Below, piece after piece: positions 1 through 11,748 of a stretch of 11,885 nt of DNA. Each line of letters starts with the position of its first letter. Position 1 is the stretch's first letter. The stretch is from a virus. The notes under the pieces are model-generated. The model was not told the origin of the DNA, did no database searches, and was given only the letters and a program-made list of their open reading frames with translations. The position numbers were made by a program, and so were the translations under genes. Where the stretch lies: the IMG/VR virus record IMGVR_UViG_3300036766_000644, positions 176,685 through 188,569 of that record; one strand, 5' to 3'.

Positions 1-747
1 ATACAGATCCGCCGCGGCGATGGTCGCAGCGGCTTGACCTACGAACGGGGTTCCGTTCAGGTTGCGAAGGTAGAGACGATTGTTCGCAAAGTCGGCGTTT
101 TGGACGAAGTAGAACCCAGCGTCAGCGCCGGTCGCGATACGCACGACACCAAAACGCGTTGGGGTGATGTAAGACTGGTCCCACCAACCGGCGTTGGCGA
201 AGGTAACGAAGTTCGTCCCCACCGCGGTTGTGAGCGTCGCGGCGGCGATGGTCATCGGGTGCGCGTAGACGATGCCGATCTGCGTGTAGTCGGCAGGGAG
301 GTCTGAGGCAGAGACGATTGAGTCGGATCCCCAGGCGCCCGCCGCCAGGTTGTCGTACGCGGCGATTCCTGCGTGAACTCGCGCGAGTAGGCCGGACCCA
401 ATGGTTCCGATGCTTCCTGTTGCACGGAACTTGGAATAGTCGAGCGTCGACAGCTGCGCCTGCCCCGCGACGCCGTTCGCAGGGTAGACGGCCAGGTTGG
501 CGTTGTACCACAGCGCGTGACCGACGGTGATGTCGTTGTCGTCGAGCAGGTTCCCCTGTTTCCACGGGTACAGGTTGATCCCGTAGTTGGAGCCGTTGTT
601 GTTGTTGTCCCAGAAGTAAAGGGTTCTGGCGAGAGTGCGGCTGCGGAAGGCGATGTTGCCCGCCTGCAGATCTTCTTTGTTGGAGGACTTCGGGTTCTCC
701 TTGTCAGGGAGAATCGTCATGAGCCCCGTGATTTCTTTGACTGACAT
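1..747 (-). CDS. Putative structural (tail/fiber-like) protein, C-terminus beyond the window edge. Starts MSVKEITGLMTILPDKENPKSS...; not in the ORF track because no stop lies inside the window.
   Basis: Reverse frame ending at 745-747 (ATG) is open for 249 codons to position 1; checked for tta/cta/tca in plus triplets and found none. GAGGA RBS 8 nt upstream of the ATG. Asn/Gly/Thr-rich beta-type composition. Sits directly downstream of the fiber-like genes. Confidence 0.45.
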   Translation of the reverse strand, partial: MSVKEITGLMTILPDKENPKSSNKEDLQAGNIAFRSRTLARTLYFWDNNNNGSNYGINLYPWKQGNLLDDNDITVGHALWYNANLAVYPANGVAGQAQLSTLDYSKFRATGSIGTIGSGLLARVHAGIAAYDNLAAGAWGSDSIVSASDLPADYTQIGIVYAHPMTIAAATLTTAVGTNFVTFANAGWWDQSYITPTRFGVVRIATGADAGFYFVQNADFANNRLYLRNLNGTPFVGQAAATIAAADLY

Positions 748-4057: not shown

Positions 4058-4618
4058 TCAGTCGTGAGTGTAGAACAGGAGGTTCTGGATTGCACCGAAA
4101 CCCTTGCTCAGGTCCTGGTCGAAGAAGTTGTTCGCACCAGCCTGGGCGATGTGGCAGAAGTCCGTGCCAGGCAGCACGACCGCGACGTGCCCGATCCCGC
4201 CGGGGTTCTTCCAGACGACCACGGAGGGGAGTCCTTTGGAGGCGCGCTCCATTGCCTTGCTCTTCCCACACTGCATCCAGCCGAACTTAGAAGAGTGCGT
4301 GGCGAACCAGTCGCAGACGCCGTTGGCAGACAACTCCTTGCCCTTCCCACGAGGAACTTCAACGCCGGTCGCCGGGTCAACCCAGTGGGGAACCTCGCAG
4401 CTCATGGCGACGGTGACGTCCCAGAGGTAAATGTTGCAGTAGGTCTCCTGCCCGTTGGCGGGATTCCCGTCATGGCCCCGAACGTATCGAGGATTCGTCT
4501 CCACCTCGAACTGTTTGGCCGCGGCTACGTAGTTCGCTGGGGATCGGTCGCTCAACGGGATCGTCAGGTCGGGTGTCACTTCTTCCCATGCGGCGGGGTT
4601 CTTCATGGAGGGGTTCAT
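4058..4618 (-). CDS. Putative peptidoglycan hydrolase of the papain-like Cys-His type (NlpC/P60 or CHAP-like amidase/peptidase). Candidate endolysin or virion-associated lysin.
   Basis: 186-aa ORF with candidate catalytic Cys in ETYCNIYLWDVT and His in GIGHVAVVLPG about 85 residues downstream; this order and spacing are typical of CHAP/NlpC-P60 enzymes. ATG at 4618-4616 lies one nt after the stop of the upstream glycine-zipper gene. Confidence 0.45.
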   Translation of the reverse strand: MNPSMKNPAAWEEVTPDLTIPLSDRSPANYVAAAKQFEVETNPRYVRGHDGNPANGQETYCNIYLWDVTVAMSCEVPHWVDPATGVEVPRGKGKELSANGVCDWFATHSSKFGWMQCGKSKAMERASKGLPSVVVWKNPGGIGHVAVVLPGTDFCHIAQAGANNFFDQDLSKGFGAIQNLLFYTHD

Positions 4619-4619
4619 G

Positions 4620-5249
4620 TCACTTGCTCGCTGTGAGGGACGGAGGGGCGCCGGGGGCCTTCATGGGTTGCACCACCGGGGGAGGAACCTTCGGCATCGT
4701 GTACTTCATCGCGGCTCCCGTGGCGATGGGAACCGCTGCGAGGGCGATCCGCATGTACTTCGCTACCTCAGGGCTCAGGAAGTCGAACCCTGCTTCCTTC
4801 TCATCCCCGCGAGAAAGGAAGTGGTGGGCCAGGCTCGCAGCAAGCGCCGTCGCTCCGATAGCTGCTGCTGCCCCGGGAGCGTACTTCCTGATCGCACCGG
4901 CGCGACCACTCTGCGTCAGCATCTTGTGGACCTTGTGGACGGCGGCTTGGCCGAGACCTGCGCCGGTAGCCCCACCGGCTAGTCCGCCGCCAGCTCCGCC
5001 CAGGATGAACCCCCCGATTCCTCCCGTCACTCCGAGGAGGCCAGGATGCCGGCCCCCCCACGCGGCACCCCCCAGTCCGCCAGCCCCCAGCCCAGCGATC
5101 CCTCCGGCCAGCCCGCCAGCCGCTCTCGCAGCGATGGGCGTCTGCGTCGGCTGAAGGTGTTCCCACAGCTTCGCCGCTCTGTCGGCGTAGTCGGCCTCTT
5201 TGATGAATGTCTCGCGAGCCTCTCGGGCTCCGGCAGCGTAGAAGTCCAT
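4620..5249 (-). CDS. Glycine-zipper-rich putative membrane protein (GGLAGGIAGLGAGGLGGAAWGG...GGIGGFILGGAGGGLAGGATGAGLG). Holin-like candidate or virion membrane-active protein.
   Basis: 209-aa ORF. The overlapping 217-aa ORF in another frame (4801-5454) is Arg-rich junk. Lies directly 5' of the hydrolase gene with a 1-nt gap. GxxxG repeats are typical of membrane helices. Confidence 0.5.
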   Translation of the reverse strand: MDFYAAGAREARETFIKEADYADRAAKLWEHLQPTQTPIAARAAGGLAGGIAGLGAGGLGGAAWGGRHPGLLGVTGGIGGFILGGAGGGLAGGATGAGLGQAAVHKVHKMLTQSGRAGAIRKYAPGAAAAIGATALAASLAHHFLSRGDEKEAGFDFLSPEVAKYMRIALAAVPIATGAAMKYTMPKVPPPVVQPMKAPGAPPSLTASK

Positions 5250-5264
5250 GGCGGCAGTATAGGC

Positions 5265-5471
5265 TTACTTTCCGCCCTTCAACATCTCCGCCGGAACCGC
5301 GAGCATGTTGTAGATGGCGTCCTTCTGGTGCTGGAAGTACTCGTCTAGCTCGAAGTCTGGAACGTAGGACGCAGATCCGAAGAGACAAGCACCGTCGGGC
5401 ATGTGGTGCTCCCGGATAGCCCAGCAACTTCGGCAGGGGATGTTGAGGACCCATTTCGCAGTGAGCTTCAA
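5265..5471 (-). CDS. Cys-motif small protein, paralog 1 (CRSC-x6-HHMPDGAC-LF). TTG start overlapping the stop of paralog 2 (TTGA).
   Basis: GGAGGA RBS 7 nt upstream of the TTG at 5471-5469. Shares the CxxC...H.D..C.F motif with four neighbouring genes. TAA stop at 5265-5267. Confidence 0.5.
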   Translation of the reverse strand: MKLTAKWVLNIPCRSCWAIREHHMPDGACLFGSASYVPDFELDEYFQHQKDAIYNMLAVPAEMLKGGK

Positions 5472-5671
5472 AAGAGGATCCTCCGGAGCAGTGAGTCGCT
5501 GTAGGGCTCCAACACCGCTGGCTTGTAGAACTGGAACAACGCCGAGTTGACCCGCTCCACTGTGAGCCCTGTTATCGCCGCGAAGTTGCTCGCCTCAAAA
5601 GGGCACTTCTCATCGACGTGGTGCTGGTACTGCTTTCGGCAGTTGGAGCAGCGGGTGGTTGGGGTGGTCAC
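5468..5671 (-). CDS. Cys-motif small protein, paralog 2 (CSNCRKQYQHHVDEKCPFEASNF). GTG start at 5671-5669 overlapping the stop of paralog 3 (GTGA). The track extends it to 5848, inside paralog 3.
   Basis: AGAAGGTG RBS 5 nt upstream of the GTG. The GTGA stop/start overlap was read directly. The N-terminal extension in the track would overlap the paralog 3 coding sequence by 180 nt. Confidence 0.5.
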   Translation of the reverse strand: MTTPTTRCSNCRKQYQHHVDEKCPFEASNFAAITGLTVERVNSALFQFYKPAVLEPYSDSLLRRILF

Positions 5672-5904
5672 TTGTACACCTTCTTGAATCCCCATACGCC
5701 GCCGAAGGTAGCCGTGATGGCGCCGCTCGCCGGGGGCAGGGGCGCTGGGACGAAAGGTATCCGCTCCAGGCTGGCTTCGAAGTTGGACGCTTCGAAAGGG
5801 CACTTCTGGTCGATGTGCACGGTGCCCGGCTTCCCGCAGTTGAGGCACTCCGACGTAGGGTCAGGGACGAATGACTCTTCGAGAGTCGATCCGGTGTCGT
5901 TCAT
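5668..5904 (-). CDS. Cys-motif small protein, paralog 3 (MNDTGSTLEESFVPDPTSECLNCGKPGTVHIDQKCPFEASNFEAS...). ATG overlaps the stop of paralog 4 (ATGA).
   Basis: Strong RBS AAGGAG with a 5-nt spacer before the ATG at 5904-5902. About 30 nt of near-identical DNA shared with paralog 2 (aagttg.ncgc.tc.aaagggcacttct..tcga.gtg). Confidence 0.55.
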   Translation of the reverse strand: MNDTGSTLEESFVPDPTSECLNCGKPGTVHIDQKCPFEASNFEASLERIPFVPAPLPPASGAITATFGGVWGFKKVYK

Positions 5905-6092
5905 TTCTTCTCCTTGTCTTTGGGCTCTTCTACGTAGCACTTGATCGTCTGCTTCAGCACGCTGATGCCCCCGGGCTTGAACTCCGAGGAGTCGAAGAGG
6001 CACTTCTTGTCGAGGTGCTGCGTGTAGTCCTTACCGCAGTTGGCGCAGGTCCGGCGCATCACCGGCATCCTGAGCTTGTACTCTTTGCTCAC
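5901..6092 (-). CDS. Cys-motif small protein, paralog 4 (CANCGKDYTQHLDKKCLFDSSEF). GTG at 6092-6090 overlaps the upstream stop (GTGA); the alternative ATG at 6068 gives MPVMRRTCANC.
   Basis: Motif conserved. Start codon ambiguous, with no clear SD for either candidate. Confidence 0.45.
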   Translation of the reverse strand: MSKEYKLRMPVMRRTCANCGKDYTQHLDKKCLFDSSEFKPGGISVLKQTIKCYVEEPKDKEKK

Positions 6093-6367
6093 GGGTCCGT
6101 GACGCCCATGATCCGACCATCCCCCTGCCAGTCTTTGTACTCGAGCGTGTACTCCACCGGGCCATTCTGCTTGTAGCCTTGTGCCCTGCTGCTGGGTTCG
6201 TCGCTGCTGTAGATCGGGTCCAGTTGTCGGTTGAGGCTCCAGTTCAGGTTCTTGCCGAACCCGTCGGGATTCTTTGCGTCCATGAGCACCTGCTCTGTGT
6301 GGTGCCCCGTCTCCAAGTCTTCTACGGTGAGGGTGATCTGAAGCCGTACTACTTTCTGCGTCGTCAT
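6089..6367 (-). CDS. Hypothetical protein (92 aa, MTTQKVVRLQITLTVEDLETGHH...) inserted between paralogs 5 and 4. It lacks the Cys motif.
   Basis: ATG at 6367-6365 preceded by AGGGG. Its TGA stop overlaps the start of paralog 4. Confidence 0.45.
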   Translation of the reverse strand: MTTQKVVRLQITLTVEDLETGHHTEQVLMDAKNPDGFGKNLNWSLNRQLDPIYSSDEPSSRAQGYKQNGPVEYTLEYKDWQGDGRIMGVTDP

Positions 6368-6375
6368 TTTAACCC

Positions 6376-6645
6376 CTATACGGTGAAGGTGAGCCCCATG
6401 TACTGAATCGTCTTCTTAACGCGGATCTTCATGTCCACGTGAACCTTGTCCCCGTCGGTGACGGTGTTGTCTTCTTCGATGACTCTCTCGCAGCTGCAGT
6501 CCAGGTGGTCGTTGACCGTCTCTTCGCGGTACTGCGTAAAGTCGAAGAGGCAGGCCCCATCGACATGGGCTTCCTTCGGCTTCCGGCAGTTGCCGCAGCG
6601 CCCCTTCTCGACCGTGTGAACCAGGTCCTTCTGGATGGAATGCAT
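6376..6645 (-). CDS. Cys-motif small protein, paralog 5 (CGNCRKPKEAHVDGACLFDFTQY) with an extra C-terminal extension containing DCSC. Probably the first gene of the leftward operon, and possibly leaderless.
   Basis: ATG at 6645-6643. The track start at 6687 is a TTG with no RBS. A TAnnnT element (TACTCT) lies 6 nt upstream of the ATG. Confidence 0.45.
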   Translation of the reverse strand: MHSIQKDLVHTVEKGRCGNCRKPKEAHVDGACLFDFTQYREETVNDHLDCSCERVIEEDNTVTDGDKVHVDMKIRVKKTIQYMGLTFTV

Positions 6646-6719
6646 GGGCGCAGAGTACCCGCGTTCGGAGGGAAAAAGCAACGCCAAATTAGGGTATCAG
6701 TAGTTGAAGGGCCCACACC
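6646..6719. promoter_or_regulatory. Divergent control region. Candidate leftward sigma-70-like promoter (TTGCTT, 18-nt spacer, TACTCT, 6 nt to ATG 6645) overlapping rightward promoter-motif copy 1 (aaattagggtatcagtagttgaagg, 6686-6710, 10 nt before ATG 6720).
   Basis: Hexamers read from the reverse complement of 6652-6681. Motif copy 1 is the most degenerate of the seven copies. Confidence 0.35.
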
Positions 6720-7094
6720 ATGACTACACTGAAATCCTTCCTCAACGGAGCTCGTAGAAACGCCTACATCAAGTACCCGGGCTTCAATTTTATGTACGTC
6801 CGACACACCAAGCGGTTCGGTATCGAAGTGATCGACCTCGCCAACCTGGAGGCGAAGGAACCTGGGCGGGGTTCGTTCGCCCGCCTGGTCAAGCACATAC
6901 GTAAGACGTACCCCCACTTGGGGATCTACGTCGAGTGCGTGCTGAACGAACGGTTCGAAGGCAAGTTGCTCGCAATGGGATTCACCCGTTGCGACGTCGG
7001 AATGAGCGCATGCTTTTACCTCTCACCGGAGATGGAGCTGAATGATCAAACCAGTCAAAGAAGCCCTCAACGAAGTTCTATGGAACCTGCGTGA
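6720..7094 (+). CDS. Small GNAT-family N-acetyltransferase-like protein (124 aa).
   Basis: Segment IEVIDLANLEAKEPGRGSFARLVKHI resembles GNAT motif A (R/Q-x-x-G-x-G/A, acetyl-CoA pyrophosphate loop). VLNERFEGKLLAMGFT resembles motif B (N..A..lYek.GF). The 3' end overlaps the next gene by 53 nt in another frame. Confidence 0.4.
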   Translation: MTTLKSFLNGARRNAYIKYPGFNFMYVRHTKRFGIEVIDLANLEAKEPGRGSFARLVKHIRKTYPHLGIYVECVLNERFEGKLLAMGFTRCDVGMSACFYLSPEMELNDQTSQRSPQRSSMEPA

Positions 7095-7380
7095 GGGGCA
7101 GGCCGTAGTAGGCGTCAAGCGTGACAAGTGGATAGCCCTCATCGAGGCTATCCTGCTGGACGCCGAAGAGAATGAGAAGCTCTTCGTCGATACGAAGATG
7201 CGGCTGATGCGTAACCGCTATTCACTCGAAGAGGTGAAGCAGATTGCAAAGGAGTACGCTGCAACCATCGGCGGAACGCAGTTCGGGCGAACCCGGACGG
7301 ACGTGGAAGACGAAGAAGACTGCAGGCGGAACCTCGAGCGTGTGATCCTCGAAGTGACGGAGAAGAGGACGCTTGGCTAA
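7042..7380 (+). CDS. Hypothetical protein (112 aa, MIKPVKEALNEVLWNLREGQAVVG...).
   Basis: Two GGAG boxes 4 and 10 nt upstream of ATG 7042. Composition is protein-like. TAA stop at 7378-7380. Confidence 0.5.
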   Translation: MIKPVKEALNEVLWNLREGQAVVGVKRDKWIALIEAILLDAEENEKLFVDTKMRLMRNRYSLEEVKQIAKEYAATIGGTQFGRTRTDVEDEEDCRRNLERVILEVTEKRTLG

Positions 7381-7594
7381 ACCGAAACAAGACGACCTTT
7401 CCAGGCGCCGTAGGCTCAACAAGGGCCAGTGCCCGACCCACGGAACAGGGCTCGAGCAAATCGGAGTTGCGACGAACCAACAGGGGATTCCTTTCGGGGA
7501 CACGCTCGCGTGCCCCCGGAAGGACTGTGACTTCTGGACGGAAGTCCGACCCGGAACTAAGCTTTGGGAGGTGCTGCGGTCAAGCGGTGGGTGA
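7373..7594 (+). CDS. Small basic zinc-finger-like protein (73 aa; CPTHG...ACPRKDC, KPKQDDLSRRRRLNK N-terminus). Possible DNA-binding regulator. TTG start overlaps the upstream stop.
   Basis: AGAGGA then a 3-nt spacer before the TTG at 7373. ORF ends just before the hairpin/T-run region. The C-x2-H ... C-x4-C spacing suggests a metal-binding knuckle. Confidence 0.4.
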   Translation: MAKPKQDDLSRRRRLNKGQCPTHGTGLEQIGVATNQQGIPFGDTLACPRKDCDFWTEVRPGTKLWEVLRSSGG

Positions 7595-7600
7595 CCGGCA

Positions 7601-7725
7601 TTCCTGAGTACTTGTTCTGTTCGTCCGGGTACTCAGTAACAACTACCGCAGTGGGGGTCTCGGGGACAGCTGCACCTCCCCCCGGGAGACCTCACCGTCT
7701 GGCCCACGAAACGGGCTTGTTTTTT
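7601..7725 (+). terminator. Cluster of stem-loops ending in a T-run: ttcctgagtac[17]gtactcagtaa at 7601-7639, ggtctcgggg...ccccccgggagacc at 7656-7691, then gcccacgaaacgggc followed by ttgtttttt at 7699-7725. Probable end of the first rightward transcription unit.
   Basis: Inverted repeats read directly from the sequence. The T6 run merges into promoter-motif copy 2. Confidence 0.35.
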
Positions 7726-7743
7726 GGGTATCAGTCTTTGAGC
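7716..7743 (+). promoter_or_regulatory. Promoter-like motif copy 2: cttgttttttGGGTATCAGTCTTTGAGC.
   Basis: One of seven direct copies of the conserved motif. Lies 24 nt upstream of ATG 7767. Confidence 0.5.
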
Positions 7744-7766
7744 ATTCCAGCTCAAGAAAGGTACTC

Positions 7767-8378
7767 ATGGCCGACATGTTCGTCAACCGCCACGCTGTGG
7801 CGGGAATCGATACCAAGGTAGTTTTTAAGAAGGACCTCGAGGGCACCGCCCCAGGGATCGAGGGGGTCCCCAAGTGGATGGCGGTGAACTTCGCCGTCGA
7901 GAACATGGGGCCTGTGGAGCTCTTGCTCCATGGGGGGAGTCTCAAGACTCTGATCGAGGTGCTCCAGAAGGGCCTGGAGAAGCTTCGGACGGAGCCGGAG
8001 GTCCTCTACACGGGCCTCTTCCTCACCCCGGAGTTCAAGGGGGCCCTGCTGGAGGCGTATCCGGCCTTCCACCCCCGACTCCACGCCGACCACGTGACAG
8101 TGGTTTTCAGGCCCGACGAGGCCATGCGGTTTCTGCTGGAGCCTCAGATCGGCAAGGAGTTCCCGATCGTGGTCACCGGAGCCGCTGCGGACGAAAAGGG
8201 GCAGGTTGTGGGCGTTAAGATCCCCTCATTCCTGCAGCATGGAGATCAGCGCCCCCACGTCACCATCTCCTGCGCTGTCAATACAGCGCCGGTCTACAGC
8301 AACCAGCTGCTGGACAAGCTGGTGGAGGTGGCGCCCCTCAAGCTGGTGGGGGTGCTCCGGCACTTCATGTCGAAGTAG
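7767..8378 (+). CDS. 2H phosphoesterase superfamily protein (LigT / 2',5' RNA ligase or cyclic phosphodiesterase-like). Candidate RNA-end healing enzyme or cyclic-nucleotide-degrading anti-defence enzyme.
   Basis: Two H-x-T-x motifs, each followed by hydrophobic residues: DHVTVVF at aa 108-114 and PHVTISC at aa 163-169. This pair is the defining signature of the 2H fold. RBS GAAAGG lies 8 nt upstream of the ATG. Confidence 0.55.
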   Translation: MADMFVNRHAVAGIDTKVVFKKDLEGTAPGIEGVPKWMAVNFAVENMGPVELLLHGGSLKTLIEVLQKGLEKLRTEPEVLYTGLFLTPEFKGALLEAYPAFHPRLHADHVTVVFRPDEAMRFLLEPQIGKEFPIVVTGAAADEKGQVVGVKIPSFLQHGDQRPHVTISCAVNTAPVYSNQLLDKLVEVAPLKLVGVLRHFMSK

Positions 8379-8386
8379 CTCCTCCG

Positions 8387-8410
8387 GGGGCCCCTCTTCG
8401 GAGGGGTCCC
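8387..8410 (+). terminator. Stem-loop ggggcccctc-TTCG-gaggggtccc (10-bp stem with 1 mismatch, UUCG tetraloop) after the 2H gene. No adjacent U-tract, so it may be a processing or stability hairpin rather than an intrinsic terminator.
   Basis: Read directly. Belongs to a ~75-bp hairpin+motif module duplicated at 9085-9167 and 9817-9923. Confidence 0.4.
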
Positions 8411-8427
8411 TGGGAGACCCTAAAAGT

Positions 8428-8456
8428 GATCATTTTTAGGGTATTAGACTTTGAAC
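8428..8456 (+). promoter_or_regulatory. Promoter-like motif copy 3: gatcatttttaGGGTATTAGACTTTGAAC.
   Basis: Conserved motif. Lies 21 nt upstream of ATG 8477, which has an AAGGAG RBS. Confidence 0.5.
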
Positions 8457-8476
8457 CCTTACAAAGGAGTTACATC

Positions 8477-9088
8477 ATGGGCTTGCCCGGGAATACCCGA
8501 ACCGTAACGAATCAGTCGGCCACCTGCGAGCAGGAGAACTGCTTCCGAAAGGCGGTGATCCGTCTGCAGGGGGAGACGGACAGTTTCGGAGCTGAGTCCG
8601 CGGAGCTGTGCGAGGAGTGCTACAAGGAGGGCCTCGCGAAGGAGGCGGCCGAGCGGGCCGCTGGAACGCACTGGATGCAGTCGGCGCACTGCGACTGGTG
8701 CAAGAAGAGCGGGGTCGCGGTGTCCCACAAGCGGGACACCGACGGGGAGGGGACCAGCGGTCCGGTCTACCTCGTCTGTGACCCCTGCAGCGATCGGTAT
8801 GACGCTGCGCTCGCTGAAGAGTACCGCGCCGAGAAGCTCCAGAAGATGGGGTACTCCTCCGAGTTGGAGTACCGGTTGGCGCAGCAGGACGCAGAGGACC
8901 GCCTGTGGGAGGACGAGGATGAGGCTCGCCACATGAACTCCCTGTGGTCCCCCACCATGGCGGTGGAGTGGAAGAGGGAGGCCTTCGAGGAGGCGGTCCT
9001 CGGGTACTACTACGATCCGGATACACGGATCGACCGGCTCCACGAGGCGGCCCTCGAGGAGGCCGCTGCCCGGTCCGAGTACTACTGA
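8477..9088 (+). CDS. Acidic Cys-rich protein with four CxxC-type pairs (CEQENC, CEEC, CDWC, CDPC; probably two zinc ribbons) and a strongly acidic C-terminal half.
   Basis: ATG preceded by AAGGAG. About 43 acidic versus 23 basic residues in 203 aa. The 240-aa antisense ORF 8475-9197 is Pro/Arg/Ser-rich junk. Confidence 0.55.
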   Translation: MGLPGNTRTVTNQSATCEQENCFRKAVIRLQGETDSFGAESAELCEECYKEGLAKEAAERAAGTHWMQSAHCDWCKKSGVAVSHKRDTDGEGTSGPVYLVCDPCSDRYDAALAEEYRAEKLQKMGYSSELEYRLAQQDAEDRLWEDEDEARHMNSLWSPTMAVEWKREAFEEAVLGYYYDPDTRIDRLHEAALEEAAARSEYY

Positions 9089-9116
9089 GCTCCCCCAGGG
9101 GCCCCTCTTCGGAGGG
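9085..9116 (+). terminator. Stem-loop cccaggggcccctc-TTCG-gaggggtccctggg (14-bp stem with 1 mismatch, UUCG loop).
   Basis: Read directly. Paralogous to the hairpins at 8387 and 9817. Confidence 0.4.
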
Positions 9117-9137
9117 GTCCCTGGGAAGGCGTAAAAC

Positions 9138-9167
9138 GATCATTTTTAGGGGTATGAGTCTTTGAGC
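9138..9167 (+). promoter_or_regulatory. Promoter-like motif copy 4: gatcatttttaGGGGTATGAGTCTTTGAGC.
   Basis: Conserved motif. Lies 44 nt upstream of ATG 9211. Confidence 0.5.
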
Positions 9168-9210
9168 CCGTACACTGCCTGGCAGTCCGGCGCTCACCCT
9201 TGGAGGGGTG

Positions 9211-9810
9211 ATGAACCCAACACAGAAGAAGATTCAAGAGGCCTTGGTCAACACGATGTTGACCGATTTGACCCACCTCGCGCTGACGTTCAATCAGCGC
9301 AACCCGGGCGAGGGCCAGGTCGGCTCTCGCTGGGACGAGACGCAGAGCCCGGCGAGCCTCATCGCCGCGGCTGAAACCCCCTACGGCTACGACGCCGGAG
9401 ACAATGCATTTGGTGGGTGTGAGTATTTCCAGTTGCCCATTCCGGGCAGTCTGGGGATCCTCCCCATCGACGCGGTCATCCACATGGGGGTTGGCCCGGA
9501 TGGCGCGGAGCGGAAGGTCTCTTTGGAGGACCCCAAGAAGACGACGGGGTCATCTGGGGGTGGCGTCCAGGCGATCCTGGACGTCACGGAGATCCAGTAC
9601 GCGCTCCACGCACGTAAGGTTCGCTTCAGCGTGGTCTCCCTCGGGCGGGAGAAGGAGGGGGCCCCCCTCCAGGTGTTCACGGTTCATCCGGGGGACGTCT
9701 CCCCGTATGTACCGGGCCTCAACAAGCCCGAGCTGATCGGGCGCGTCGTGACGGCGCAGGAGGCCAAGGACCTCGGGGTCCTCATCGTGAAGCTGCGGAT
9801 CCGGGCCTAA
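9211..9810 (+). CDS. Hypothetical protein (199 aa, MNPTQKKIQEALVNTMLTDLTHL...). The GTG at 9208 is an alternative start.
   Basis: GGAGGGG precedes the ATG. Composition is protein-like. TAA stop at 9808-9810, then a perfect hairpin. Confidence 0.55.
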   Translation: MNPTQKKIQEALVNTMLTDLTHLALTFNQRNPGEGQVGSRWDETQSPASLIAAAETPYGYDAGDNAFGGCEYFQLPIPGSLGILPIDAVIHMGVGPDGAERKVSLEDPKKTTGSSGGGVQAILDVTEIQYALHARKVRFSVVSLGREKEGAPLQVFTVHPGDVSPYVPGLNKPELIGRVVTAQEAKDLGVLIVKLRIRA

Positions 9811-9816
9811 ATGCCC

Positions 9817-9846
9817 CCAGGGACCCCTCTTCGGAGGGGTCCCTGG
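9817..9846 (+). terminator. Perfect 13-bp stem-loop ccagggacccctc-TTCG-gaggggtccctgg (UUCG tetraloop), followed at 9857-9866 by a decayed motif fragment cttgtttttagcc.
   Basis: Read directly from the sequence. Confidence 0.45.
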
Positions 9847-9894
9847 CCCGTAGGCCTTGTTTTTAGCCCTAAACGGCCCCAGGATCATAAAACT

Positions 9895-9923
9895 GATCAA
9901 AATGGGGGTATGAGTACTTGAGC
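9895..9923 (+). promoter_or_regulatory. Promoter-like motif copy 5: gatcaaaatgGGGGTATGAGTACTTGAGC. Here the T-run is replaced by aaaatg.
   Basis: Conserved motif. Lies 50 nt upstream of ATG 9973. Confidence 0.45.
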
Positions 9924-9972
9924 CCAAGTATAGCTGTTCCACCCGTAGTCCGGGGCTCAAAAAGGACACCAG

Positions 9973-10200
9973 ATGAGCTACCTCTTCCCCACCACCTCCG
10001 AGAAGATCTTCAACCGTAAGAACCTCTCGGTCGCCGCTGACGTGACTGTCATCGCCACCGCCGCCATCCCCCTCGCCATCTGGCTGTTCGATGCGGCGAA
10101 GGGCCTCGTCGGCACCGCCTCGACGGCCGCCGCGTCGGTCGCCGCGAAGTTCCAGGCCCGCCGCCCGTCGCACGTGTCCTCGATGCAGGACGTCGGCTAA
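9973..10200 (+). CDS. Small membrane protein (75 aa; TM helix VTVIATAAIPLAIWLF).
   Basis: RBS AAAGGA precedes the ATG. One hydrophobic helix. TAA stop, then an intrinsic terminator. Confidence 0.5.
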   Translation: MSYLFPTTSEKIFNRKNLSVAADVTVIATAAIPLAIWLFDAAKGLVGTASTAAASVAAKFQARRPSHVSSMQDVG

Positions 10201-10224
10201 ACGGCTTCGATCCTCCACCCCTAC

Positions 10225-10256
10225 ACGGGGGCCCTCACAGGCCCCCGTTGTTTTTG
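10225..10256 (+). terminator. Rho-independent terminator: acgggggcc-ctcaca-ggcccccgt, then tgtttttg.
   Basis: 9-bp GC-rich stem immediately followed by a U-tract. Confidence 0.6.
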
Positions 10257-10271
10257 CTCAAAGGAGCTCAC

Positions 10272-10415
10272 ATGTCGCGTTTCGATACGTTCGCTTTCGG
10301 GGTCGTCTTCGGGGTAGGCTTCGCCTTGCTGTACGCCGGGGCTAAAGCGGTCTTCGGTACCCACACCTGCTGCTGCCCTGGAACGGGGGCCCCGCTGGAG
10401 GAGTCCAATGCTTGA
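10272..10415 (+). CDS. Small hydrophobic peptide (47 aa, MSRFDTFAFGVVFGVGFALLYAGAKAVFGTHTCCCPGTGAPLEESNA). Not in the ORF track.
   Basis: AAGGAG RBS 5 nt upstream of ATG 10272. Single TM-like segment followed by a CCC motif. TGA at 10413-10415. Confidence 0.4.
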   Translation: MSRFDTFAFGVVFGVGFALLYAGAKAVFGTHTCCCPGTGAPLEESNA

Positions 10416-10569
10416 TCCAATTAAGCTGTTCGCTGACAAACCTCCAGAGGAGTTGACCGGATCAGAGATCCTGGTCAAAGCCATCTTCACGTGCCTCTCC
10501 TTCCTCATGAAGGTGGAGGAGTTCGAGGGTCGCCTCCTGGAAGCCGAGAAGTCCGCCAAGAAGAGCTAA
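10408..10569 (+). CDS. Small protein (53 aa, MLDPIKLFADKPPEELTGSEILVKAIFTCLSFLMKVEEFEGRLLEAEKSAKKS). Its ATG overlaps the upstream stop (ATGCTTGA). Not in the ORF track.
   Basis: GGAGGA RBS 5 nt upstream. Open to the TAA at 10567-10569, then a terminator. Confidence 0.4.
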   Translation: MLDPIKLFADKPPEELTGSEILVKAIFTCLSFLMKVEEFEGRLLEAEKSAKKS

Positions 10570-10573
10570 AAGA

Positions 10574-10612
10574 CGAGCCACCCGGGGGTCCCCTGAGGTG
10601 GCTTTTCTTTTG
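10574..10612 (+). terminator. Rho-independent terminator: agccacc(c)ggggg-tc-cccct(ga)ggtggct, then tttctttt.
   Basis: Long GC-rich stem followed by a U-tract. Confidence 0.55.
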
Positions 10613-10628
10613 ATCAGAAAAGAGCCTC

Positions 10629-10652
10629 TTTTTTAGGTATCAGTCTTTGAGC
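10629..10652 (+). promoter_or_regulatory. Promoter-like motif copy 6: ttttttaGGTATCAGTCTTTGAGC. Lies only 4 nt before ATG 10657, which implies a leaderless or very short-leader mRNA.
   Basis: Conserved motif. No SD lies between the motif and the ATG. Confidence 0.5.
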
Positions 10653-10656
10653 AATC

Positions 10657-11169
10657 ATGCTCGAGAAAGGTGCCTTCGTGGACAAGTCCACTGCTTATGT
10701 TGTGTCCGCCGTCCTTACCACCATCGCCGGGATCGCCGGTTTCTTCCTCGGTCGTCGCAATGACGCCGAGCGTACCGCCTCCGCCCTCGAGCGGCAGGCG
10801 CTGATCGCCGCTGAGAAGGCGGCGAGCGAGCGTACCTACACGCTCCAGATCAAGGCCACCACGCAGGCCCGCCAGGAGGCCGCCGAGGCGGAGCGCCAGG
10901 AGGCGGCGCGGATCGCCGCCCTCACCCCCGCCCAGCGGGAAGCCTTCGAGTCGGAGCGCAAGCACAAGGAGGAGGCGGCCAACGCCCGCATCGCCGCCCA
11001 GCGGGAGGCCGACGCTGCCTACGCCATCGCTGCCGCCGAGCAGCGCCAGGCGCTGGCCGCTGAGGAGATGGTTCGCGAGACGCGGCGCCTTCGCCGGGAG
11101 ATCGCGGACGTCGCCTACACGGCGCCGTCTCCGGCGTACTACCTGGGCCTGTACACCCGGGGGTACTGA
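10657..11169 (+). CDS. Membrane-anchored coiled-coil protein. N-terminal TM (VVSAVLTTIAGIAGFFLG), then an Ala/Glu/Arg/Gln-rich helical region. The topology resembles an i-spanin or Rz, but the function is unknown.
   Basis: 170-aa ORF. The 201-aa antisense ORF is Arg/Gly/Leu-rich junk. TGA stop, then a terminator. Confidence 0.5.
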   Translation: MLEKGAFVDKSTAYVVSAVLTTIAGIAGFFLGRRNDAERTASALERQALIAAEKAASERTYTLQIKATTQARQEAAEAERQEAARIAALTPAQREAFESERKHKEEAANARIAAQREADAAYAIAAAEQRQALAAEEMVRETRRLRREIADVAYTAPSPAYYLGLYTRGY

Positions 11170-11182
11170 GTCACGCCGTCCG

Positions 11183-11215
11183 CCGCCCACAGAACATCGT
11201 GGGCGGTTTCTTTTG
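11183..11215 (+). terminator. Rho-independent terminator: ccgcccac-agaacatc-gtgggcgg, then tttcttttg.
   Basis: 8-bp stem followed by a U-tract. Confidence 0.55.
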
Positions 11216-11227
11216 CCTAGGAGTGCC

Positions 11228-11677
11228 ATGGAACTCATCCTGCTGTGCGGGATCTCTGGGTCGGGTAAGACGACCTACCGTGACAAACACTTTCCCGACG
11301 CAGTTCTGGCGTCGGCAGACGATGGAATGATGGAGAACGGGATCTACGTGTTCCGAGGGTCCAACCTCGAGCACGCCCACGGAGCTTGTTTCCGGCGGGT
11401 AATCGAGGCCCTTCAGTCTCGCCGCCCGCTGGTGGTTGTGGACAATACGAACATCACCATTGAAGCGGTGGCCCCGTATATGTCCGCAGGGGAAGCCTAC
11501 GGGTACAAGGTCCGGCTCCTCTGCCTGAAGTTGGCCCCCGAGATCGCTGGCCCTCGGAACACCCACAAGGTACCGCAGGCCAAGGTCGAGGAGATGGCAA
11601 AGACGTTCGACGCCTTCCTCAAGAACCTCCCAAGGCGCTGGAAAGCACGCGTAGAACTGGTCCCCGCCGATCCGTAG
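11228..11677 (+). CDS. P-loop kinase of the polynucleotide-kinase / AAA_33 type (MELILLCGISGSGKTT ... PLVVVDNTNI).
   Basis: Walker A GISGSGKTT at the N-terminus. The hhhhDNTN Walker-B-like motif, as I recall it, is characteristic of PNK-family kinases. AGGAG RBS 4 nt upstream of ATG 11228. The track starts 15 nt earlier, with no RBS. Confidence 0.5.
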   Translation: MELILLCGISGSGKTTYRDKHFPDAVLASADDGMMENGIYVFRGSNLEHAHGACFRRVIEALQSRRPLVVVDNTNITIEAVAPYMSAGEAYGYKVRLLCLKLAPEIAGPRNTHKVPQAKVEEMAKTFDAFLKNLPRRWKARVELVPADP

Positions 11678-11694
11678 GCGGGGGCCTTTTTTTG
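11662..11694 (+). terminator. Hairpin ccccgcc-gatccgtag-ggcgggg, then gcc and ttttttt, which merges into motif copy 7.
   Basis: 7-bp GC stem, 3 nt, then a T7 run. Confidence 0.45.
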
Positions 11695-11710
11695 GTATCA
11701 GATCTTGAGC
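11686..11710 (+). promoter_or_regulatory. Promoter-like motif copy 7: ctttttttGGTATCAGATCTTGAGC.
   Basis: Conserved motif. Lies 38 nt upstream of ATG 11749. Confidence 0.45.
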
Positions 11711-11748
11711 CTCAGCTTTACTCCCACGGGCTCGGAAAGGTACCACAC

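What the first reader, a model, noticed from the sequence alone, without database searches (positions are those of the whole stretch)
6686..11710. Seven direct copies of a ~24-bp conserved promoter-like motif (tTTTTAGGGTATCAGTCTTTGAGC) punctuating the rightward arm
Copies lie at 6686-6710, 7716-7743, 8428-8456, 9138-9167, 9895-9923, 10629-10652 and 11686-11710. All are on the plus strand and all are upstream of a plus-strand gene. The distance from motif end to start codon varies from 4 to 50 nt, so this is not an RBS-linked start-associated sequence. The motif does not fit a sigma-70 -35/-10 layout: only a TATCAG-like hexamer is present and no -35 sits at the right spacing. A ~24-bp block of high conservation immediately 5' of transcription units is what phage-encoded RNA polymerase promoters (T7-like single-subunit RNAP) or phage-specific sigma or activator sites look like. 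Three copies are preceded by GATCA. Copy 1 is divergent (GTAGTTGAAGG), in copy 5 the T-run is replaced by AAAATG, and a decayed fragment (cttgtttttagcc) lies at 9857-9866. Some copies therefore look like weakened or older copies. Copies 1 and 6 lie 4-10 nt from the ATG with no SD, which implies leaderless mRNAs.
Basis: seen in the sequence. Interest (0 to 1): 0.7.

Follow-up and report, generated by a model that had tools for sequence, protein, structure and literature searches.

The report
Repeated terminator-promoter cassettes in large phage
Seven near-identical intergenic signals in one arm of an uncultured, roughly 188-kb phage most likely act as promoters that give each small accessory gene its own transcript, and related phages have gained and lost genes by recombining between these repeats.

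Summary
Seven plus-strand copies sit at the stated coordinates, and nothing else in 22 kb of the parent contig resembles them.

The promoter reading is supported in kind, but several details are wrong.
- The element is longer than 24 bp. It has an A-rich -35-like block (CrTAAA), 14 bp of AT-rich spacer, then an invariant GGTATnAG (usually GGGTATnAG), then TTGAGC.
- Spacer length, the GGGTAT box and the distance to the inferred start fit a sigma-70-family promoter of the sigmaB/SigF class, not a T7-type promoter.
- In three relatives the first rightward gene starts 5-7 nt after GGTATCAG with no ribosome-binding site. This places the start near G13/A14 of GAGC.
- One copy in a relative lies upstream of tRNA genes, so the signal is transcriptional.
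- The TTGAGC part pairs with a GCTCAA just before the ribosome-binding site. This would form a stem-loop at the 5' end of the mRNA in 21 of 29 independent leaders.
- Most copies follow a terminator or a GC-rich hairpin.

Relatives differ by whole-gene insertions and deletions whose crossover lies inside these repeats, as in the PeSL cassettes of T4-like phages. No sigma or RNA polymerase gene was found, and no transcript data exist. I rate it a new variant of a known kind, of moderate interest.

The parts
6672..6709 (+). Copy 1: GAAAAA-N14-GGGTATCAG-tagtt-GAAG. It is the first promoter-like element of the rightward arm and lies in the 74-bp divergent gap. Its 3' end carries GAAGG as the likely ribosome-binding site for ATG 6720.
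   Evidence: Orthologues in L021, L085, L086, L087 and L088 keep ATTAGGGTATCAG.
7706..7743 (+). Copy 2: ACGAAA-N14-GGGTATCAG-tcttt-GAGC, upstream of ATG 7767. The -35-like block sits in the loop of the terminator hairpin, and the T-tract is shared with that terminator.
8419..8456 (+). Copy 3: CCTAAA-N14-GGGTATTAG-acttt-GAAC, upstream of ATG 8477.
9130..9167 (+). Copy 4: CGTAAA-N14-GGGTATGAG-tcttt-GAGC, upstream of ATG 9211.
9886..9923 (+). Copy 5: CATAAA-N14-GGGTATGAG-tactt-GAGC, upstream of ATG 9973. The T-tract is replaced by AAAATGG.
   Evidence: The same variant is kept in L021 and L086.
10615..10652 (+). Copy 6: CAGAAA-N14-AGGTATCAG-tcttt-GAGC, upstream of GTG 10678 and not ATG 10657.
11673..11710 (+). 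Copy 7: CGTAGG-N14-TGGTATCAG-atctt-GAGC, upstream of ATG 11749.
7701..7725 (+). Intrinsic-terminator-like hairpin GGCCCACGAAACGGGCT plus TGTTTTTT, directly abutting copy 2.
8384..8414 (+). GC-rich stem-loop (GGGGCCCC-TCTTCGGA-GGGGTCCC) with a UUCG loop and a G.U pair on the sense strand. It lies 3' of the gene at 7767-8378. It has no adjacent U-tract.
   Evidence: (D3, I1, I2). It is the crossover site in L086.
9095..9125 (+). Second copy of the GC-rich stem-loop, 3' of the gene at 8477-9088.
9816..9868 (+). Third copy of the GC-rich stem-loop (9816-9846), followed by GGCC-cgta-GGCC and TTGTTTTT.
10577..10611 (+). Terminator hairpin GCCACC...GGTGGC plus TTTTCTTTT, 3' of the gene at 10408-10569 and upstream of copy 6.
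11659..11693 (+). Terminator hairpin (10 pairs, 9 of them G-C) plus TTTTTTT. The T-run runs directly into copy 7.
7740..7753 (+). Predicted 5'-terminal RNA hairpin GAGC-attcca-GCTC, extendable to TTTGAGC/GCTCAAG. It ends just before the ribosome-binding site GAAAGG.
   Evidence: z = -4.5.
8449..8466 (+). Weaker variant hairpin CTTTG-aaccctta-CAAAG in the leader of copy 3, whose motif has GAAC in place of GAGC.
   Evidence: The same form occurs in L088.
9164..9195 (+). Predicted 5'-terminal hairpin GAGCCCG...CGGCGCTC in the leader of copy 4.
   Evidence: z = -2.2.
9920..9958 (+). Predicted 5'-terminal hairpin GAGCCC...GGGCTC in the leader of copy 5, followed by AAAAAGGA.
10649..10662 (+). Predicted 5'-terminal hairpin GAGCA-atca-TGCTC in the leader of copy 6, followed by GAGAAAGG and GTG 10678.
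   Evidence: z = -5.7.
11707..11733 (+). Predicted 5'-terminal hairpin GAGCC...GGCTC in the leader of copy 7, followed by GGAAAGG.

Best explanation
Each copy is the promoter part of a composite intergenic cassette that makes the downstream accessory gene, or in a relative a tRNA cluster, its own transcription unit.

Reading 5' to 3', a cassette contains:
1. The stem-loop or intrinsic terminator that ends the upstream transcript.
2. A two-block promoter: an A-rich -35-like hexamer CrTAAA, a 14-bp AT-rich spacer that is usually a T-tract, and a -10-like GGGTATnAG.
3. A start at or next to G13/A14 of the conserved GAGC, 8-10 nt after GGGTAT.
4. An RNA stem-loop that begins at the first transcribed base (GAGCn...nGCTC) and ends just before the ribosome-binding site AAAGG.

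Marked as inference:
- A bacterial-type RNA polymerase holoenzyme reads the promoter with a non-primary sigma factor of the sigmaB/SigF kind. This sigma could be a host stress sigma or a phage-encoded one.
- The 5' stem-loop protects the mRNA end from 5'-end-dependent decay.

Because the cassettes are about 100 bp of near-identical sequence repeated every 0.7-1 kb, they also serve as substrates for homologous recombination. That recombination adds, removes and swaps whole genes between related phages.

The confidence of 0.65 is for the cassette model: promoter, terminator, leader hairpin and recombination substrate. The sigmaB/SigF-type sigma assignment alone is worth about 0.35.
For: Shown:
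- Seven copies stand far above background.
- More than 40 further copies in nine related contigs are always intergenic, on one strand, and co-oriented with the next gene.
- Block anatomy from 18 non-redundant copies: GGTAT, A6, G7, T12 and G13 are invariant. A is present at -18 to -16 in 14-15 of 18 copies, with a fixed 14-bp spacing to GGGTAT.
- Copy 1 is the only such element in the divergent 74-bp gap where the rightward arm must start.
- One copy lies about 50 nt upstream of tRNA-Thr and tRNA-Gln genes in L101.
- In L087 and L088 an orthologous 62-66 aa gene starts at an ATG 5-7 nt after GGTATCAG. There is no room for a ribosome-binding site, and L088 has no alternative in-frame start. L086 has an ATG at the same place.
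- Canonical terminators abut copies 2, 6 and 7.
- Leaders are more structured than shuffles: mean z = -1.8, Wilcoxon p = 4e-5, n = 29. The fold begins at base 1 of the predicted RNA in 21 of 29.
- The inner stem position covaries: GAGCC/GGCTC, GAGCA/TGCTC, GAGCG/CGCTC, GAAC/GTTC.
- Insertions and deletions against L086 and L021 remove whole cassettes. The crossover lies inside the shared hairpin CCCCTCTTCGGAGGGGTCCCTGG.

From the literature:
- PeSL cassettes have the same stem-loop, AT-rich tract, promoter and Shine-Dalgarno layout, and the same role in gene shuffling (PMC2839356, PMC4122927).
- The sigmaB consensus is GTTTAA-N14-GGGTAT (PMC9847131).
- Streptomyces SigB-type promoters place the start about 8-10 nt after GGGTAT (PMC8346170, Table 2).
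Against: - There are no transcript 5' ends, no expression data and no cultured phage or host. Promoter activity and the start site are inferred.
- The -35-like block shares only 3 of 6 bases with GTTTAA.
- The invariant A6 and G7 have no counterpart in the sigmaB class.
- No sigma gene was found, but only part of the genome was seen.
- A formal count of the pairs flanking the GAGC/GCTC core did not beat the controls: 50.8% paired against 48.3% in shuffles, and the slid registers scored as high. The outer T:A pairs may only reflect a T-rich motif facing a purine-rich ribosome-binding region.
- Eight of 29 leaders lack the terminal hairpin.
- GCTCAAAGGAG also precedes the gene at 10272 without any motif copy.
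- Copies 3 and 4 follow a hairpin that has no U-tract, so termination there is not assured.
Confidence: 0.65

Rival explanations
1. The copies are promoters for a phage-encoded RNA polymerase, either T7-like single-subunit or another non-host enzyme. It would recognise one contiguous block of about 24 bp and start at A6/G7 or just after it.
For: - Conservation is high and nearly contiguous from the T-tract to GAGC, and extends into the transcribed region as in T7-type promoters.
- The motif departs from the canonical -10 and -35, while canonical-looking promoters exist on the other strand.
- If the T10-T12:AAA pairs of the leader stem are real, the start would lie upstream of T10.
Against: - The element has two blocks at a fixed 14-bp (or 17-bp) spacing typical of sigma-70-family promoters.
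- The start codons without a ribosome-binding site at positions 13-15 in L087 and L088 need a start there and not at position 6-7.
- No polymerase gene was found in about 100 kb of lineage DNA. The 2045-aa protein is a repetitive fibre-like protein with no DxDxD motif.
- The motif is limited to one arm of 5-10 kb in genomes of about 188 kb.
Confidence: 0.1
2. The copies are binding sites for a phage regulator, such as asymmetric 'stoperator'-like repressor sites or activator sites. They would be placed in intergenic gaps and oriented with transcription, with the real promoter only at copy 1.
For: - The element is asymmetric, one-stranded, intergenic and co-oriented with transcription. From my own knowledge, this matches the repressor sites of cluster A mycobacteriophages.
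- One copy overlaps the divergent promoter region.
- An HTH protein is encoded in the same arm of a relative.
Against: - Canonical terminators sit directly upstream of copies 2, 6 and 7, so transcription has to restart there.
- The distance to the gene starts that lack a ribosome-binding site, and to the 5' hairpin, is fixed.
- One copy precedes tRNA genes.
- No repressor, integrase or other sign of a temperate lifestyle was seen.
Confidence: 0.08
3. The copies mark RNA processing sites. One long rightward transcript would be cut at the conserved sequence into monocistronic mRNAs that carry a protective hairpin at each end.
For: - There is a strong sense-strand hairpin with a conserved G.U pair 3' of several genes, without a U-tract at copies 3 and 4.
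- A hairpin begins right at the conserved GAGC.
- The arm carries an RNA-repair and RNA-processing gene set.
Against: - Copy 1 has no upstream rightward transcript to process.
- The upstream -35-like block and its fixed spacing have no role in an RNA cleavage site.
- Terminators with U-tracts precede copies 2, 6 and 7.
Confidence: 0.07
4. The repeats are mainly selfish or recombinational DNA, a dispersed repeat kept similar by gene conversion. Any promoter activity would be incidental.
For: - Cassette insertions and deletions cross over within the repeats.
- Similarity extends over about 100 bp, including parts with no obvious signal function (D3 and D6).
- The cluster is confined to one arm.
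Against: - The invariant bases are the same in contigs that have diverged elsewhere, including a 51% G+C genome that keeps only the GGTATNAG core.
- Strand and position relative to genes are strictly kept.
- The leader hairpin is kept through changes on both sides.
Confidence: 0.1

Closest known systems
PeSL (promoter-early stem-loop) cassettes of T4-like phages (Arbiol et al. 2010, PMC2839356; Comeau et al. 2014, PMC4122927)
   Same: - A composite intergenic repeat of about 100 bp.
- The same layout: G/C-rich stem-loop (terminator or attenuator), AT-rich tract, promoter, then Shine-Dalgarno sequence and start codon.
- The repeats are clustered in a variable region full of small genes of unknown function.
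- Related phages differ by whole-gene insertions, deletions and replacements whose crossover lies in the repeats.
   Different: - The promoter here is not the sigma-70 consensus (-35 CrTAAA, -10 GGGTATnAG).
- The transcribed end of the motif forms an extra 5' stem-loop.
- The phage shows no detectable relation to T4-like phages or to any GenBank phage.
- Promoter and terminator activity and mini-circles were shown by experiment for PeSLs. None was tested here.
SigmaB/SigF-class (group 3 sigma) promoters, GTTTAA-N12-15-GGGTAT (PMC9847131, PMC8346170)
   Same: - A GGGTAT -10 box (GGTAT invariant, the first G in 11 of 18 copies).
- A 14-bp spacer to the upstream hexamer.
- The start inferred 8-10 nt after GGGTAT.
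- An A-rich 3' half of the upstream hexamer.
   Different: - The upstream hexamer is CrTAAA and not GTTTAA, and lacks the leading G.
- There are two extra invariant bases (A6, G7) and a conserved TTGAGC.
- No such sigma has been identified in the phage or assigned to a host.
T7-family single-subunit RNA polymerase promoters (own knowledge: about 23 bp, -17 to +6)
   Same: - High, nearly contiguous conservation over more than 20 bp.
- Many copies on one strand in front of genes.
- The transcribed start folds into a 5' stem-loop.
   Different: - The element has two blocks and an upstream block near -35.
- The inferred start is 6 nt after the conserved AG.
- No polymerase gene was seen.
- The genome is about 188 kb with divergent arms, and the motif is limited to one arm.
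Stoperators of cluster A mycobacteriophages (own knowledge)
   Same: Asymmetric short repeats in intergenic gaps, oriented with transcription, with one copy at a divergent promoter.
   Different: - Stoperators are 13-bp repressor sites spread over both arms of temperate phages.
- Here the copies follow terminators.
- They keep a fixed distance to gene starts that lack a ribosome-binding site.
- They include a -35-like block.

Membership tests
PeSL-type mobile regulatory cassette | A repeated intergenic composite of a stem-loop plus a promoter, ending in a Shine-Dalgarno sequence and start codon | tested here: met
   Hairpins or terminators lie upstream of copies 2-7. The Shine-Dalgarno sequence and start codon lie 14-53 nt downstream.
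PeSL-type mobile regulatory cassette | The promoter matches the host sigma-70 consensus (an early promoter) | tested here: not met
   The consensus scan finds no sigma-70-type site at any copy. The -10-like hexamer is TATnAG, with G at the last position, and the -35-like hexamer is CrTAAA.
PeSL-type mobile regulatory cassette | Clustered in a variable region of small orphan genes | tested here: met
   Ten of 12 right-arm proteins have no Pfam or named PHROG family. The motif is confined to this arm in the parent contig and in the 187-kb and 190-kb relatives.
PeSL-type mobile regulatory cassette | Differences between related genomes are whole-cassette insertions, deletions or replacements with the crossover inside the repeats | tested here: met
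   L086 lacks window 8413-9814 and L021 lacks 9124-9814. The three-way alignment places the crossover in the shared hairpin. Different genes follow orthologous copies in L021, L085 and L086.
PeSL-type mobile regulatory cassette | Measured promoter and terminator activity; excised mini-circles | not testable with these tools
   This needs reporter assays and inverse PCR on phage DNA.
PeSL-type mobile regulatory cassette | Host phage is a T4-like myovirus | tested here: not met
   There is no nucleotide or protein match to any of 50,697 GenBank phage records. There are no T4-like families in Pfam or PHROGs.
SigmaB/SigF-class promoter | -10 box GGGTAT (GGG(A/T)A(A/T)) | tested here: met
   GGTAT is invariant in 18 of 18 non-redundant copies. 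The preceding base is G in 11 of 18.
SigmaB/SigF-class promoter | -35 box GTTTAA (at least G and T-rich) | tested here: not met
   The block is CrTAAA: C in 14 of 18, T in 10 of 18, and AAA in 14-15 of 18. It matches 3 of 6 bases and has no leading G.
SigmaB/SigF-class promoter | Spacer of 12-15 (up to 17) bp between the boxes | tested here: met
   The spacer is 14 bp in all seven window copies and in register across 18 copies.
SigmaB/SigF-class promoter | Transcription by holoenzyme that carries such a sigma | not testable with these tools
   No sigma gene was found in the DNA held. The host is unknown. In vitro transcription or a two-plasmid assay is needed.
T7-family phage polymerase promoter | A single contiguous conserved block from about -17 to +6, with the start directly after it | tested here: not met
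   There is an extra conserved block 15 bp upstream. The start is inferred 6 nt after the invariant AG, from gene starts that lack a ribosome-binding site.
T7-family phage polymerase promoter | A single-subunit RNA polymerase gene in the genome | tested here: inconclusive
   None was found among the proteins of the 22-kb parent stretch or in about 80 kb from relatives. Most of the roughly 188-kb genome was not available.

The most novel reading that the evidence does not exclude
The cassettes define a previously undescribed promoter class, CrTAAA-N14-GGGTATnAG with the start at GAGC. An unidentified phage-encoded or phage-redirected sigma factor of the sigmaB/SigF lineage reads it in an uncultured lineage of roughly 188-kb phages. 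The promoter is fused to a built-in 5' mRNA stem-loop, and the whole unit doubles as the recombination module that shuffles accessory and RNA-repair genes. This would extend the PeSL principle beyond T4-like phages and beyond sigma-70 promoters.
Probability: 0.3. Interest if true: 0.65.

Novelty: new variant of a known kind. Interest (0 to 1): 0.5.

Why it matters
If this is right, composite terminator-promoter cassettes that both express and shuffle accessory genes are not peculiar to T4-like phages. They would be a general solution that arose again in an unrelated large-phage lineage, with a different promoter type.

It would give three things:
- A precise, testable promoter consensus and a predicted start site for a group of phages that has no cultured member.
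- A way to delimit the 'accessory gene' arm in metagenomic contigs.
- A compact natural part (terminator, promoter, stabilising 5' hairpin, ribosome-binding site) that could be tried as an insulated expression unit in high-G+C hosts.

It would also point to an alternative sigma factor, from the host or the phage, as the switch for this arm.

Tried and rejected
- Nucleotide and protein searches against GenBank phages found nothing.
- The exact 17-mer in IMG/VR gave only single chance-level hits.
- I tried to recover the remaining 8 kb of the 30-kb parent contig, and the 188,569-bp JGI contig that carries an identical protein. The exact look-up returned only the Logan contig. The metagenome scan did not hold the large contig.
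- Host assignment failed. The lysin-like protein has only 42-49% relatives, in Archangium chromosomes and an Actinomycetes MAG. That is too weak to name a host.
- I tested whether the 2045-aa protein is a virion RNA polymerase. It has no DxDxD motif, no PDB or Pfam match, and a repetitive Gly/Thr-rich fibre-like sequence.
- A 198-aa protein in L101 gave a weak Sigma70_r4_2 hit, below the curated cut-off. It is only a mid-protein helix-turn-helix, not a sigma factor.
- Sigma-54 does not fit. The GG-to-GC spacing is 13, not 10, read directly from the sequence.
- Sigma-28 does not fit. TAAA-N15 is followed by GGTATnAG, not GCCGATAA.
- The Bacteroidetes TAnnTTTG box and archaeal BRE/TATA layouts also do not fit the spacing.
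- Two pairing tests were uninformative. A count of pairs flanking the GAGC/GCTC core did not exceed the shuffles or the slid registers. A first longest-helix test was noisy, with Fisher p = 0.005. An earlier version was badly designed and was discarded.
- Rfam found only tRNAs.

Full report
**Observation**

- The stated 24-mer finds four copies at up to 3 mismatches, against none in 200 shuffles.
- A weight matrix built from the seven scores them at 30.7-40.6 bits. The next best site on either strand of 21,958 bp of the parent contig scores 10.9.
- The bare core GGTATNAG occurs seven times on the + strand, all of them the copies, and once on the - strand.

**Source**

The window is part of a 30,196-bp Logan contig (SRR11714510_65354).
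- One window protein is recorded, with an identical sequence, on a 188,569-bp JGI contig.
- Relatives with 70-79% identical structural-region proteins lie on IMG/VR contigs of 187,070 and 190,250 bp.
- No GenBank phage matches at the DNA or protein level.
- Almost no protein has a Pfam or PHROG family.
- The window therefore most likely comes from an uncultured phage of about 188 kb.
- The - strand arm holds tail-fibre-like, lysis-like and small Cys-rich genes.
- The + strand arm holds small orphan genes, a 2H-phosphoesterase-like gene and an AAA_33/polynucleotide-kinase-like gene.

**Related copies**

- A scan of JGI metagenome contigs with a 17-mer gave mostly single chance hits. It also gave five contigs (L018, L021, L037, L052, L068) with one to six full copies each.
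- Contigs that carry homologues of the 203-aa window protein (L085, L086) have four copies each.
- The two large IMG/VR genomes have five to ten copies in the equivalent arm (L087/L125; L088/L111/L101).
- In every case the copies are on one strand, intergenic, and co-oriented with the next gene.
- A 51% G+C genome (L011) keeps only the core GGTATNAG, five times on the relevant strand and never on the other.
- A degenerate pattern scan of IMG/VR hit the 187-kb and 190-kb genomes only inside this arm.
- 21 kb of their structural region holds no copy.
- The cluster therefore spans about 5-10 kb and is not genome-wide. The pattern would miss diverged copies.

**Anatomy**

Positions are numbered from the first G of GGTAT as 0. 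In 18 non-redundant copies:
- GGTAT (0-4), A6, G7, T12 and G13 are invariant, and A14 is present in 17 of 18.
- G-1 is present in 11 of 18.
- There is a T-tract at -7 to -3.
- There is a second block at -21 to -16: C in 14 of 18, then any base, T in 10 of 18, and AAA in 14-15 of 18. The contig is 18% A.

The seven window copies read GAAAAA, ACGAAA, CCTAAA, CGTAAA, CATAAA, CAGAAA and CGTAGG. Each is followed by exactly 14 bp and then (G/A/T)GGTATnAG.

The block keeps its register even where it lies in the loop of a terminator hairpin (copies 2 and 7).

**Start site**

In L087 and L088 an orthologous 62-66 aa gene begins at an ATG 5 or 7 nt after GGTATCAG.
- There is no room for a ribosome-binding site.
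- L088 has no other in-frame start.
- L086 has an ATG at the same place.

Such genes need a leaderless mRNA, which puts the start at position 13-15. In the standard copies this is the invariant G13/A14.

The same leaderless geometry is seen for canonical-looking promoters on the other strand.
- TTGCTT-N18-TACTCT-N6-ATG lies at 6645. Its hexamers are unchanged in four relatives while the spacer varies.
- TATACT-N6-ATG lies at 5249.

With the start at 13-14, the -10-like hexamer TATnAG occupies -12 to -7, the upstream hexamer occupies -35 to -30, and GGGTAT lies 8-10 nt before the start.
- This is sigma-70-family geometry.
- Its closest class is sigmaB/SigF, with GTTTAA-N14-GGGTAT (PMC9847131) and the start about 8-10 nt after GGGTAT in Streptomyces examples (PMC8346170).
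- The upstream hexamer matches only 3 of 6 bases, and A6/G7 have no counterpart. Membership of that class is therefore not established.

**Evidence that the signal is transcriptional**

- Copy 1 is the only candidate promoter in the 74-bp divergent gap.
- Canonical terminators abut copies 2, 6 and 7, so transcription must restart there.
- One copy in L101 lies about 50 nt upstream of tRNA-Thr and tRNA-Gln genes.

**Leader structure**

The conserved 3' end of the motif pairs with a GCTC(A/G)A just before the ribosome-binding site AAAGG.
- The stem is 4-8 bp and the loop is 4-31 nt of unrelated sequence.
- Leaders taken from G13 are more stable than their shuffles: mean z = -1.8, Wilcoxon p = 4e-5, n = 29 non-redundant.
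- In 21 of 29 the fold starts at base 1. Taken from position 9, mean z is -2.1.
- The inner stem position changes on both sides: GAGCC/GGCTC, GAGCA/TGCTC, GAGCG/CGCTC, GAAC/GTTC.
- A formal count of the flanking pairs did not beat the shuffled or slid controls. The extent of the stem beyond GAGCn is therefore uncertain.
- A stem-loop at the very 5' end of an mRNA is an established protection against 5'-end-dependent decay (general knowledge). That function is inferred here.

**Upstream structure and recombination**

Copies 3, 4 and 5 follow a 31-nt GC-rich stem-loop with a UUCG loop and a conserved sense-strand G.U pair. Copies 2, 6 and 7 follow hairpins with U-tracts.

Comparison with relatives shows whole-cassette differences:
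- L086 lacks window 8413-9814, which holds two genes.
- L021 lacks 9124-9814 and 7050-7374.
- Both carry an extra gene after copy 1.

A three-way alignment shows that L086 matches the copy-3 cassette up to the stem-loop and the copy-5 cassette after it. The crossover therefore lies inside the shared hairpin. Orthologous copies also precede different genes in L021, L085 and L086.

This is the behaviour described for the PeSL cassettes of T4-like phages. PeSLs have the same order: stem-loop, AT-rich tract, promoter, Shine-Dalgarno sequence (PMC2839356, PMC4122927).

**What reads the promoter**

This is not settled.
- No sigma or RNA polymerase gene appears in the 22-kb parent stretch or in about 80 kb from relatives.
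- The 2045-aa protein is fibre-like.
- A weak region-4 hit in L101 is only a helix-turn-helix.
- Most of the genome was not available.
- The same invariant core in a relative with very different G+C content hints at a factor inherited with the phage. This is only an inference.

**Verdict**

The finding is real. It is best read as a set of PeSL-like terminator-promoter-leader cassettes with a non-canonical, sigmaB-like promoter.
- The T7-like reading is unlikely.
- The claims of a leaderless copy 6 and of a missing -35 are wrong.
- The idea that the repeats are recombination sites is also true.
- It is a new variant of a known kind, of moderate interest.

Noticed in passing
window 5468-6645 (- strand): A tandem family of small Cys-rich genes (CxxC...KCxF pattern). 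Four of them share a 57-nt repeat at 5595, 5792, 5992 and 6542. A similar short match exists in the 187-kb relative (L010 17045-17122).
   Followed up: partly
window 6643-6681 and 5247-5261 (- strand): Canonical-looking promoters placed for leaderless mRNAs. TTGCTT-N18-TACTCT-N6-ATG(6645) has both hexamers unchanged in L021, L085 and L086 while the spacer varies. TATACT-N6-ATG(5249) is similar. The -35 of the first lies back to back with the -35-like block of motif copy 1.
   Followed up: partly
window 8384-8414, 9095-9125, 9816-9846: A 31-nt GC-rich stem-loop with a UUCG tetraloop and a G.U pair that exists only on the sense strand. It has no adjacent U-tract. Variants with other loops (GAAA, AAAA, CTAACC) occur in relatives.
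   Followed up: partly
window 7767-8378 and 11228-11677; L101, L125, L052: An RNA-repair theme in the motif-bearing arm. It includes a protein with two HxT motifs (2H-phosphoesterase-like, no Pfam hit) and an AAA_33/polynucleotide-kinase-like protein. Relatives carry cREC_REC and a weak tRNA_lig_CPD match, and tRNA genes are present in L101 (and in L011).
   Followed up: partly
window 10225-10268 and 11182-11227: Two terminator-like hairpins with T-tracts are followed directly by a ribosome-binding site and a gene, with no motif copy. The first is followed by GCTCAAAGGAG, the usual 3' arm plus ribosome-binding site but without the 5' arm. This may be a cassette that lost its promoter, or an attenuator.
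   Followed up: no
L007 10593-16730 (parent contig, left of the window; its C-terminal end is window 2-744, - strand): A 2045-aa Gly/Thr/Ala-rich protein with repeated ...DVGK..V.TG....ANNG.F.IT... units. It has no Pfam, PHROG or PDB sequence match and sits among tail-fibre-like genes.
   Followed up: partly
window 4058-4618 (- strand): A lysin-like 186-aa protein with no family match. It has 72-77% relatives on two other IMG/VR contigs of about 170 kb. It also has 42-49% relatives in Archangium (Myxococcota) chromosomes and an Actinomycetes MAG. This is the only, and weak, hint about the host.
   Followed up: partly
window 8424-8441 (also 9135-9152, 10603-10618): A short A-tract/T-tract palindrome around GATC (AAAAGTGATCATTTTT) lies between the GC hairpin and the core. 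CCCTAAAA can pair with TTTTAGGG. GATC is a common methylation site, and this was not examined.
   Followed up: no
L101 6477-6527 and L011 (- strand) about 700-760: A 28-nt stretch, GGCAAGTA(A/C)GCCCAGCTCATT(G/T)TTTAGC, is shared downstream of a motif copy in two otherwise different genomes. In one it precedes tRNA genes and in the other a protein gene. Rfam has no match.
   Followed up: no
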